This document shows positions 1-3,000 of a stretch of 64,000 nt of DNA, in pieces. The position numbers were made by a program. The stretch lies in assembly GCF_002854065.1 (NCBI RefSeq), contig NZ_CP024147.1; one strand, 5' to 3'. Every line of letters starts with the position of its first letter. The stretch's first letter is position 1. The stretch comes from Escherichia coli. GTDB taxonomy: Bacteria; Pseudomonadota; Gammaproteobacteria; Enterobacterales; Enterobacteriaceae.

Positions 1-3000
1 TGTAAGCATTGCGAAGAGTGTGAAGACGGGCTGGAAAACTACTGTGATCACATGACCGGCACCTATAACTCGCCAACGCCGGACGAACCGGGCCATACTC
101 TGGGCGGCTACTCACAACAGATCGTCGTTCATGAGCGATATGTTCTGCGTATTCGTCACCCGCAAGAGCAGCTGGCGGCGGTGGCTCCTTTGTTGTGTGC
201 AGGGATCACCACGTACTCGCCGCTACGTTACTGGCAGGCCGGGCCGGGTAAAAAAGTGGGCGTGGTCGGCATCGGCGGTCTGGGACATATGGGGATTAAG
301 CTGGCCCACGCGATGGGGGCACATGTGGTGGCATTTACCACTTCTGAGGCAAAACGCGAAGCGGCAAAAGCCCTGGGGGCCGATGAAGTTGTTAACTCAC
401 GCAATGCCGATGAGATGGCGGCTCATCTGAAGAGTTTCGATTTCATTTTGAATACAGTAGCTGCGCCACATAATCTCGACGATTTTACCACCTTGCTGAA
501 GCGTGATGGCACCATGACGCTGGTTGGTGCGCCTGCGACACCGCATAAATCGCCGGAAGTTTTCAACCTGATCATGAAACGCCGTGCGATAGCCGGTTCT
601 ATGATTGGCGGCATTCCAGAAACTCAGGAGATGCTCGATTTTTGCGCCGAACATGGCATCGTGGCTGATATAGAGATGATTCGGGCCGATCAAATTAATG
701 AAGCCTATGAGCGAATGCTGCGCGGTGATGTGAAATATCGTTTTGTTATCGATAATCGCACACTAACAGACTGAAAAAATTAATAAATACCCTGTGATTT
801 AACATATTAACTTCGCTCTCCACTTAACTTTTTAGTTAAGGAGAGCGAAATAATATCAAAGTAGCAGTAAAACCTATAACGTAAATTCAAATTGTTAAAT
901 TAACTCCCTCCAGTACACAATACTTCTCACGTTAGTTATGAGCGATTTCTGATAGTGCCTGGTTTAATTAGAGCTTTATTATCTGCGACGTTTATTTTTA
1001 TTTAAGAGAGATCGCGATGATATCATTAAAAGCTCCGCGCAATAATTTGATGCCATATACGCAACAAAGCATACTTAATACGGTTAAAAACAATCAGTTA
1101 CCAGAGGATATCAAAAGCTCCCTGGTTTCCTGTGTCGATATATTCAAGGTTTTGATTAAACAATATTATGATTATCCTTATGATTGTCGTGATGATTTAG
1201 TCGATGACGACAAACTCATTCATCTCATGGCTGCCGTACGAGACTGTGAGTGGTCAGACGATAACGCACTCACCATAAATGTGCAGTTTAATGATTTCCC
1301 TGGATTTTATGACTGGATGGATTACCCTGATCACCCGGTTAAGTTTGTTTTTCGCATACTTGAAAATCAAAAAGGGACAGTTTGGGTATATGACCAGGAT
1401 GATGCGTTTCTTGATATTAAAGCAAATGTGCAGGCTGGACGCTTTACCGGGCTTAAGAAATTAGTGCAGTTTATCAATTCAGTGCGAACAGATTGCAAAT
1501 GTATTCTTCTTGAACACCATATGCCTTTGCTGATGGATTTGCCCCTATATTTCCAGACATCTGTTATCACTTAACCCATTACAAGCCCGCTGCCGCAGAT
1601 ATTCCCGTGGCGAGCGATAACCCAGCGCACTATGCGGATGCCATTCGTTATAATGCTCGAACGCCTCTGCAAGGTTCTTTGCTGCCGTTAACCCGTCTGG
1701 TTTGGGCATGATACTGATGTAGTCACGCTTTATCGTTTTCACGAAGCTCTCTGCTATTCCGTTACTCTCCGGACTCCGCACCGCCGTGTTCTTCGGTTCA
1801 AGTCCCAACATCCGGGCGAACTGGCGTGTTTCATTAGCCCGGTAGCATGAACCATTATCCGTCAGCCACTCCACTGGAGACGACGGAAGATCGTTGCCGA
1901 AGCGGCGTTCCACCGCTCCCAGCATGACGTCCTGTACTGTTTCACTGTTGAAGCCGCCGGTAGTGACCGCCCAGTGCAGTGCCTCACGATCACAGCAGTC
2001 CAGCGCGAACGTGACACGCAGTCTCTCTCCGTTATCACAGCAGAACTCGAACCCGTCAGAGCACCATCGCTGATTGCTTTCTTTCACGGCCACTCTGCCT
2101 GTATGTGCCCGTTTCGATGGCGGTACAGCAGGTTTTCGCTCAAGCAACAGCGCATTCTGGCGCATGATCCGGTAAACACGTTTGGCATTGATCGCAGGCA
2201 TACCATCAAGTTCTGCCTGTCTGCGAAGCAGCGCCCATACCCGACGATAACCATACGTGGGCAGCTCTCCGATAACATGGTGTATACGGAGAAGCACATC
2301 CGTATCATCAGTGTGACGACTGCGGCGGCCATCCATCCAGTCATCGGTTCGTCTGAGAATGACGTGCAACTGCGCACGCGACACCCGGAGACAACGGCTG
2401 ACTAAGCTTACTCCCCATCCCCGGGCAATAAGGGCGCGTGCGCTATCCACTTTTTTGCCCGTCCATATTCAACGGCTTCTTTGAGGAGTTCATTTTCCAT
2501 CGTTTTCTTGCCGAGCAGGCGCTGGAGTTCTTTAATCTGCTTCATGGCGGCAGCAAGTTCAGAGGCAGGAACAACCTGTTCTCCGGCGGCGACAGCAGTA
2601 AGACTTCCTTCCTGGTATTGCTTACGCCAGAGAAATAACTGGCTGGCTGCTACACCATGTTGCCGGGCAACGAGGGAGACCGTCATCCCCGGTTCAAAGC
2701 TCTGCTGAACAATTGCGATCTTTTCCTGTGTGGTACGCCGTCTGCGTTTCTCCGGCCCTAAGACATCAATCATCTGTTCTCCAATGACTAGTCTAAAAAC
2801 TAGTATTAAGACTATCACTTATTTAAGTGATATTGGTTGTCTGGAGATTCAGGGGGCCAGTCTAGCTGAGACTTTTCCCTAAAGGGAAAGAGTGTATGCA
2901 TGTGGAAAAATGGCTTCGCGAAATGTCGTCTATTCCGGAGACAGACGCGCCCATTAAGCAGGCGCTTGCGCATGGATTATTATTACACTTAAAAAATATC

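What the first reader, a model, noticed from the sequence alone, without database searches (positions are those of the whole stretch)
775..1016. AT-rich yahK-yahL intergenic region with a GC-clamped palindrome
The 34-bp near-perfect hairpin at 814-847 sits in a very AT-rich spacer upstream of the low-GC yahL/yahM genes, the same low-GC segment that attracted the IS2. It may be a protein-binding palindrome or a factor-dependent terminator rather than an intrinsic one, since no U-tract follows on either strand.
Basis: seen in the sequence. Interest (0 to 1): 0.15.

Follow-up and report, generated by a model that had tools for sequence, protein, structure and literature searches.

The report
Stem-loop ending the yahK messenger RNA
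The palindrome is real and conserved across E. coli, and it is most likely an ordinary stem-loop at the end of the yahK messenger RNA, where published mapping places the RNA 3' end, with Rho factor probably terminating transcription just downstream.

Summary
Window 812-849 (GC-clamped core 814-847) is a 38-nt hairpin: 10+6 bp, a 2-nt bulge and a 4-nt loop. It folds at -21.8 kcal/mol (z = -8.1) inside a 31% GC spacer, and no U-tract follows on either strand.

It starts 38 nt after the yahK stop codon and is single-copy. It occurs in 5072 of 5426 complete E. coli genomes. Strains that lack yahL also keep it, so it belongs to yahK.

Published Term-seq data for MG1655 (Adams et al. 2021) place RNA 3' ends at window 852 and 854, which is 3-5 nt past the stem. 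The same study lists a bicyclomycin-sensitive "Rho termination region" that peaks at window 890. The 78 nt after the stem are G-poor (7.7% G, C/G 2.67, 99.7th percentile of the window) and unstructured, as expected for a rut site.

This matches the class described by Dar & Sorek (2018): a stem-loop without a U-tract that sets and protects the 3' end of a Rho-terminated mRNA. The "protein-binding palindrome" idea is not. This is an ordinary feature of low interest.

The parts
1..774 (+). 3' part of yahK (NADPH-dependent aldehyde reductase); stop codon TGA at 772-774
   Evidence: ORF list. RefSeq annotation of matching E. coli records.
775..854 (+). yahK 3' untranslated region up to the mapped RNA 3' end (80 nt)
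   Evidence: Distance from the stop codon to the Term-seq 3' ends. Adams et al. class the end as 'orphan', a class that includes long 3' UTRs more than 50 nt from the gene end.
812..829 (+). Left arm of the hairpin (TTCGCTCTCC-AC-TTAACT; AC at 822-823 is bulged)
830..833 (+). Loop (TTTT)
834..849 (+). Right arm of the hairpin (AGTTAAGGAGAGCGAA)
852..854 (+). Published steady-state RNA 3' ends. MG1655 344011 corresponds to window 852 and 344013 to window 854.
   Evidence: Adams et al. 2021, Supplementary files 1 and 3. The 61-nt context strings match window 802-862 and 804-864, with the 3' end at the 51st base. The listed distances of -165 and -163 to yahL agree.
850..927 (+). G-poor, C>G, unstructured and untranslated stretch; putative Rho loading (rut) region
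   Evidence: 16 C against 6 G. C/G is 2.67 (99.7th percentile of 78-nt frames in the window) and G fraction is 7.7% (lowest 0.13%). Window 850-940 folds at only -5.7 kcal/mol, z = -0.34.
890..890 (+). Peak coordinate of the published 'Rho termination region' (MG1655 344049, Rho score 3.6, p = 1.8e-5)
   Evidence: Adams et al. 2021, Supplementary file 2.
1017..1533 (+). 5' part of yahL, cut by IS2 (1534-2864). This is the downstream neighbour, not part of the element.

Best explanation
The hairpin is the terminal stem-loop of the yahK mRNA.

Proposed mechanism. Transcription of yahK runs past the stop codon (774) and through the hairpin (812-849). It then enters an untranslated, G-poor, unstructured stretch (850-927), where Rho can load. 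Rho releases the polymerase at scattered points further downstream, in front of or inside yahL. The 3'-to-5' exonucleases (PNPase, RNase II) then trim the tail back until the 16-bp stem stops them. This leaves a defined, protected 3' end 3-5 nt after the stem (window 852/854). The hairpin thus fixes the mRNA end and its stability, while Rho keeps yahK transcription from running into the AT-rich yahL/yahM genes.

Shown: the structure, its conservation, its linkage to yahK, the mapped 3' ends, the lack of a U-tract, and the rut-like composition.

Inferred: that Rho is what terminates yahK transcripts here, and that exonuclease trimming creates the mapped end.
For: 1. The hairpin is stable and non-random: -21.8 kcal/mol, z = -8.1.
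2. It starts 38 nt after the yahK stop codon.
3. Term-seq 3' ends in MG1655 fall at window 852 and 854, which is 3-5 nt after the stem. They were found in two growth conditions.
4. There is no U-tract and the terminator scan gives 0 hits. The 3' end lies closer to the stem than the 7-8-nt U-tract of an intrinsic terminator would place it (for that architecture).
5. A bicyclomycin-sensitive Rho termination region peaks at window 890. The authors note that such positions lie close to processed 3' ends.
6. The 78 nt after the stem have C/G 2.67 (99.7th percentile) and 7.7% G, and they are unstructured.
7. Dar & Sorek 2018 describe this architecture for Rho-dependent E. coli transcripts: a stable stem-loop, no U-rich tail, C>G downstream, and PNPase/RNase II trimming.
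8. The element is single-copy and present in 5072 of 5426 genomes. B2-type strains that lack yahL keep it.
9. The three common alleles differ by 2-nt deletions in the left arm, yet all fold stably: -21.8, -20.1 and -29.1 kcal/mol.
10. yahK orthologues in Enterobacter sp. BIGb0383 and Salmonella bongori have a different hairpin at the same position, with a full or partial T-run. A 3' hairpin is therefore a positional requirement of the gene rather than inherited sequence.
Against: - The Rho call rests on few reads (32/24 without BCM, 83/225 with BCM) and on 800-nt windows. With BCM, downstream coverage exceeds upstream coverage. Part of the signal must therefore come from transcripts that start after yahK, such as a yahL promoter normally silenced by Rho, and not from yahK read-through.
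- The 3' end was not listed for LB at OD 0.4.
- No exonuclease-mutant or in vitro data exist for this site.
- The putative rut stretch is G-poor but only about 20% C.
- There is no compensatory base-pair covariation. All sequences found that contain the hairpin are E. coli or closely E. coli-like, and they are nearly identical there. The next YahK relative examined (91% identity) has unrelated DNA after the stop codon.
- At least one strain carries a C-to-A change that weakens the stem to -14.4 kcal/mol, and one strain has IS1 inserted in the hairpin. The element is therefore dispensable.
Confidence: 0.6

Rival explanations
1. The hairpin is a weak, non-canonical intrinsic terminator. With its A/U-rich tail (AAAUAAUAU) it releases RNA polymerase directly, and Rho only mops up the read-through.
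For: The stem is as strong as those of intrinsic terminators. The tail is A/U-rich, so the RNA-DNA hybrid is weak. The 3' ends are sharp, 2 nt apart. Dar & Sorek discuss mixed or transitional cases with reduced U content. Orthologues in other genera use U-tract hairpins at the same position.
Against: Only 3 U occur in the 8 nt after the stem, and the consensus scan gives no hit. The 3' end is 3-5 nt from the stem, not inside a 7-8-nt U-tract. A Rho-sensitive region is reported at the site.
Confidence: 0.2
2. The hairpin is a relic palindrome of acquired AT-rich DNA with no selected role. It exists by descent, varies by replication slippage, and only incidentally stops exonucleases.
For: It was found only in E. 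coli-type sequence; the next YahK relative examined (91% identity) has unrelated DNA after the stop codon. Its variation consists of 2-nt indels at one spot in the left arm, as expected for slippage at a palindrome. There is no covariation. It is lost or damaged in some strains without obvious consequence.
Against: It is kept in 5072 of 5426 genomes, including lineages that lost the neighbouring yahL. All three common alleles keep a strong hairpin, and allele 3 adds a C810T change that extends the stem. RNA ends map to it.
Confidence: 0.15
3. The palindrome is a DNA operator bound by a dimeric regulator that controls yahL or yahK.
For: The DNA has dyad symmetry. Genomic SELEX papers list yahL as a CRP target and report RNA polymerase holoenzyme binding near yahL. 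Neither places a site on the hairpin.
Against: 16-bp arms with a 4-nt spacer are far longer than typical operators. The common alleles change the spacing between outer and inner half-sites by 2 bp. The only CRP-like half-site I saw (TGTGA at 793-797) lies outside the hairpin and reads TGTGG in K-12. The hairpin persists where yahL is absent. It lies 168 nt upstream of the yahL start codon and downstream of yahK.
Confidence: 0.05

Closest known systems
3'-terminal protective stem-loops of Rho-dependent E. coli transcripts (Dar & Sorek 2018, NAR 46:6797; hypothesis of Peters et al. 2012)
   Same: A stable stem-loop sits just upstream of a precise steady-state 3' end. There is no U-rich tail. C>G composition follows directly downstream. 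The site is bicyclomycin-sensitive. It lies in a 3' UTR after a stop codon.
   Different: Rho dependence and exonuclease trimming have not been shown for this transcript. The stem is AT-richer (39.5% GC) than typical, and the site lies at the edge of an AT-rich, probably acquired segment.
Intrinsic (Rho-independent) terminators
   Same: The position after a gene and a hairpin of comparable energy. yahK orthologues in Enterobacter sp. BIGb0383 have a classic terminator at this position.
   Different: There is no 7-8-nt U-tract. The RNA end is 3-5 nt from the stem.
REP/BIME and other intergenic repeat palindromes that stabilise upstream mRNA
   Same: An extragenic palindrome at a gene's 3' end that can block 3'-to-5' exonucleases.
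   Different: It is single-copy (1 place per genome), AT-rich, and unrelated to the REP consensus. It has no Rfam match.

Membership tests
Protective 3' stem-loop of a Rho-terminated transcript (Dar & Sorek class) | A steady-state RNA 3' end immediately downstream of an energetically stable stem-loop | tested here: met
   The published Term-seq ends 344011 and 344013 map by their sequence context to window 852 and 854, 3-5 nt after the stem. The stem folds at -21.8 kcal/mol.
Protective 3' stem-loop of a Rho-terminated transcript (Dar & Sorek class) | No uridine-rich tract after the stem | tested here: met
   The tail is AAAUAAUAUC, and the terminator scan gives 0 sites.
Protective 3' stem-loop of a Rho-terminated transcript (Dar & Sorek class) | C-over-G enrichment (rut-like, unstructured) directly downstream | tested here: met
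   For 850-927, C/G is 2.67 (99.7th percentile) and G is 7.7%. The fold of 850-940 is -5.7 kcal/mol, z = -0.34.
Protective 3' stem-loop of a Rho-terminated transcript (Dar & Sorek class) | Read-through increases when Rho is inhibited (bicyclomycin) | tested here: inconclusive
   A published Rho termination region peaks at 344049 (window 890), with score 3.6 and p = 1.8e-5. Read counts are low, and downstream coverage with BCM exceeds upstream coverage, so a second transcript source is likely.
Protective 3' stem-loop of a Rho-terminated transcript (Dar & Sorek class) | Longer 3' tails in pnp or rnb exonuclease mutants | not testable with these tools
   The supplementary tables of Dar & Sorek are not held.
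Intrinsic terminator | A stable stem-loop | tested here: met
   16 bp, with a base of CGCUCUCC/GGAGAGCG.
Intrinsic terminator | A 7-8-nt U-rich tract immediately 3' of the stem, with the RNA end inside it | tested here: not met
   3 U in 8 nt on the + strand and 4 in 8 on the - strand. The scan found no site. The end lies 3-5 nt from the stem.
REP/BIME or another dispersed intergenic repeat | Many copies per genome sharing a consensus | tested here: not met
   There is one match in the 64-kb window at up to 3 mismatches. The median is 1 place per E. coli genome.
Any curated RNA family (Rfam 15) | A score at or above the family gathering threshold | tested here: not met
   The best overlapping hits score 17.6-21.7 bits against thresholds of 60-73.
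Transcription-factor operator palindrome | Fixed half-site spacing conserved among strains, and a bound protein | tested here: inconclusive
   Spacing is not conserved, because 2-nt deletions in the left arm distinguish the three common alleles. Protein binding cannot be tested here.

The most novel reading that the evidence does not exclude
The hairpin plus the Rho site could form a conditional gate rather than a fixed end. The 3' end was listed only for stationary-phase LB and minimal medium. Read-through from yahK into the E. coli-specific orphan genes yahL/yahM could therefore be tuned by growth state. Alternatively, the 80-nt yahK 3' UTR ending in the hairpin could accumulate as a stable RNA with its own role.
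Probability: 0.06. Interest if true: 0.35.

Novelty: new member of a known kind. Interest (0 to 1): 0.1.

Why it matters
It matters little beyond annotation. It gives the yahK transcript a defined 3' end, an 80-nt 3' UTR. It explains an 'orphan' Term-seq peak in a published MG1655 data set. It also adds one well-documented natural example of a hairpin without a U-tract next to a rut-like stretch, with three natural indel alleles that could serve as ready-made stem variants in tests of the exonuclease-stop model. It also marks the boundary between core DNA (yahK) and the AT-rich, E. coli-specific yahL/yahM segment that Rho appears to police.

Tried and rejected
- Rfam search of 500-1300 at a permissive E-value found only sub-threshold noise.
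- The consensus promoter/terminator scan found no terminator. Its only promoter-like sites (starting at 1017 and 1157) lie inside yahL.
- Dispersed-repeat idea: rejected, because the element is single-copy.
- Small ORF on the minus strand (746-823, 25 aa from GTG or 19 aa from ATG, with GGAGAG upstream in the stem): rejected. Allele-3 strain GCU-H1 (the one allele-3 sequence read) has an extra A in the A-run that frameshifts it. The rest overlaps the yahK end, so its conservation is uninformative.
- Small ORF downstream of the AAGGAG in the right arm: there is no start codon at a usable distance.
- CRP site: the only TGTGA half-site (793-797) lies outside the hairpin, has a poor second half, and reads TGTGG in K-12.
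It was useful only for the Enterobacter comparison.
- Protein search plus contig look-ups: the hairpin is identical in a 97%-identity YahK relative, and the 91%-identity relative has unrelated DNA after the stop codon. No covariation test was possible.
- Plasmid collection: the 10 listed hits (of 13, all labelled Escherichia) look like F-prime-sized K-12 plasmids or chromosome-sized records filed as plasmids (not examined further).
- Pfam on YahL and YahM: nothing reached the thresholds.
- Other 3'-end data sets (Dar & Sorek tables, the 3'-UTR valves paper, the 3'-seq comparison preprint, Thomason TSS maps) are not held, and the TERMITe supplements do not mention the locus.

Full report
**Observation**

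The sequence at window 812-849 reads TTCGCTCTCC-AC-TTAACT / TTTT / AGTTAAG-GAGAGCGAA. It is an inverted repeat of 16 pairs (10 + 6) interrupted by a 2-nt bulge, with a 4-nt loop.

As RNA, the + strand folds at -21.8 kcal/mol and the - strand at -23.0. None of 200 dinucleotide-preserving shuffles folds as well (z = -8.1 and -6.9). I scanned the whole 64-kb window with 52-nt frames. About 1.6% of frames reach -21.8 kcal/mol, and almost all of the listed strong hairpins have 55-75% GC. Among those listed at 40% GC or less, I saw only this one and two others, although the listing was cut in the middle.

The spacer 775-1016 is 31.4% GC. yahK is 53.1%, the window 52.5%, yahL 38.8-39.6% and yahM 46.7% (profile). 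No U-tract follows on either strand, and the consensus terminator scan finds nothing.

**Surroundings**

yahK ends at 774, so the hairpin starts 38 nt after its stop codon. yahL starts at 1017.

IS2 occupies 1534-2864 (1331 bp) with a 5-bp target duplication, GCTGA, at 1529-1533 and 2865-2869. The ORF at 2896-3168 is therefore the C-terminal part of yahL (517 + 299 = 816 nt, as in K-12). yahM lies at about 3581-3826.

**Distribution**

The 48-nt hairpin segment occurs once per genome in 5072 of 5426 complete E. coli genomes. It is unique in the window at up to 3 mismatches. It is therefore not a dispersed repeat, and Rfam has no family for it.

About 1150 genomes match only the first 411 nt of a 946-nt query covering the yahK end, the IGR and yahL. 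In LF82 (phylogroup B2), window 1010 is joined directly to window 3181. yahL is precisely absent there, yet the whole spacer with the hairpin is kept. The hairpin therefore travels with yahK and not with yahL.

**Alleles**

Three alleles account for 4903 records:

| Allele | Change | Records | Fold (kcal/mol) |
|---|---|---|---|
| 1 (window, K-12) | 2-nt bulge | 3952 | -21.8 |
| 2 (B2: LF82, Nissle 1917) | CT deletion; the bulge becomes a 2x2 internal loop | 548 | -20.1 |
| 3 | AC bulge deleted (perfect 16-bp palindrome); C810T adds one more pair | 403 | -29.1 |

All three remain strong hairpins. A rare C-to-A variant drops to -14.4 kcal/mol. One strain (PEC414) has IS1 inserted inside the left arm.

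There is no compensatory covariation to test. A relative with 97%-identical YahK has the identical hairpin. The next relative (91% identity, in a different gene context) has unrelated DNA straight after the stop codon. The YahK homologues of Enterobacter sp. BIGb0383 and Salmonella bongori (87% and 86% identity) are followed by other hairpins, with a full or partial T-run.

**Published transcript data**

Adams et al. 2021 (eLife 10:e62438) list Term-seq 3' ends on the + strand of MG1655 at 344013 and 344011. The first is in the LB OD 2.0 sheet. By its position in the file, the second is in the M63 sheet. Both are classed 'orphan' and lie 163 and 165 nt upstream of yahL.

The 61-nt context strings match window 804-864 and 802-862. 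The 3' end is the 51st base of each string. I checked this against the SgrS entry, where the 51st base is the last U of the terminator. The ends therefore fall at window 854 and 852, which is 5 and 3 nt after the stem.

'Orphan' in that paper includes long 3' UTRs, because 'primary' requires an end less than 50 nt from the gene. Here the distance is 80 nt.

The same paper's bicyclomycin experiment lists a Rho termination region peaking at 344049 (+), which is window 890. The Rho score is 3.6 and p = 1.8e-5. The authors note that such positions lie close to processed 3' ends.

**Composition downstream**

Window 850-927 has 16 C and 6 G. Its C/G ratio of 2.67 is at the 99.7th percentile of 78-nt frames in the window, and its G fraction of 7.7% is in the lowest 0.13%. 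Window 850-940 is essentially unstructured (-5.7 kcal/mol, z = -0.34). The stretch is also untranslated. These are the general properties of a Rho loading site.

**Interpretation**

Dar & Sorek 2018 (NAR 46:6797) showed that Rho-dependent E. coli transcripts have precise steady-state 3' ends immediately downstream of stable stem-loops. These stem-loops lack a U-rich tail and are followed by C>G sequence. The ends arise when PNPase and RNase II trim a diffuse Rho-terminated tail back to the stem. Every feature I could test matches that class.

I therefore take the hairpin to be the terminal, protective stem-loop of the yahK mRNA. Rho-dependent termination would occur downstream, in the G-poor spacer or in early yahL.

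Structure, position, conservation, the mapped ends and composition are shown. Rho action on yahK transcripts and exonuclease trimming are inferred.

The main weakness is the Rho call. It uses 800-nt windows and few reads (32/24 without BCM, 83/225 with BCM). With BCM, coverage downstream exceeds coverage upstream. Some of the increase must therefore come from transcripts that start after yahK, not from read-through.

**Rivals**

- A weak intrinsic terminator is possible, because the tail is A/U-rich and the ends are sharp. However, the site lacks the defining U-tract, and the end is too close to the stem.
- A functionless relic palindrome that varies by slippage cannot be excluded, because there is no covariation. 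Retention in lineages that lost yahL, and hairpin-preserving alleles, argue mildly against it.
- An operator palindrome is unlikely. The arms are very long, the common alleles shift half-site spacing by 2 bp, and no binding data point to it. Genomic SELEX papers mention yahL only at gene level.
- A minus-strand small ORF (746-823) is frameshifted in allele-3 strain GCU-H1.

**Verdict**

This is a real, conserved and ordinary 3'-end stem-loop: a new documented member of a known kind. The 'protein-binding palindrome' guess is not. Interest is low.

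Noticed in passing
window 1529-2869 and 2896-3168: IS2 is 1534-2864 (1331 bp) with the 5-bp target duplication GCTGA at 1529-1533 and 2865-2869. It splits yahL after 517 nt. The ORF at 2896-3168 is therefore the C-terminal part of yahL, and yahM is at about 3581-3826.
   Followed up: yes
window 1011-3180; L002 (LF82) about 4385-4400: yahL shows a presence/absence polymorphism. About 1150 of 5137 matching complete E. coli genomes lack it next to the spacer. In LF82, window 1010 is joined directly to 3181 (6 nt before the start codon to 12 nt after the stop). A 2024 paper proposes yahL as a qPCR marker for all E. coli/Shigella (PMC11057252). Such an assay would miss these strains, which are mostly B2-type.
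   Followed up: partly
L090 (E. coli PEC414) about 1531-2300: An IS1 element is inserted inside the left arm of the hairpin (after ...CTCTCCA). yahL is missing and yahM follows. This is a natural knock-out of the hairpin.
   Followed up: partly
window 39782-39833: A perfect 20-bp inverted repeat, TATACTATAGGGGGGTATG ... CATACCCCCCTATAGTATA (-33.5 kcal/mol at 37% GC). It lies just upstream of minus-strand ORFs of 98 aa and 369 aa. From memory it looks like the FrmR operator of the frmRAB promoter. I did not verify this.
   Followed up: no
window 3567 and about 3762: The same published data set lists a second 'orphan' Term-seq 3' end at MG1655 345390, which is window 3567 (14 nt before yahM). 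It also lists a stronger Rho termination region inside yahM at 345585 (score 6.2), which is about window 3762. The whole AT-rich yahL-yahM segment seems to be policed by Rho.
   Followed up: partly
L003 (E. coli O78 strain 3) 1-3039 versus L001 (K-12) 1-3039: The genes upstream of yahK differ between strains. O78 strain 3 has sugar ABC transporter genes, whereas K-12 and LF82 have yahI/yahJ. K-12 and LF82 keep a 75-nt pseudogene remnant at that position. yahK thus sits between two variable segments.
   Followed up: no
L084 4050-4307; L004 4050-4140; L086 4050-4100: Sequence similarity to E. coli stops at the yahK stop codon in the nearest non-E. coli-type relatives. Each has its own downstream hairpin. 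Enterobacter sp. BIGb0383 has a classic GC stem plus a T-run. Salmonella bongori has a hairpin with a partial T-run, shared with a convergent LysR-family gene.
   Followed up: partly
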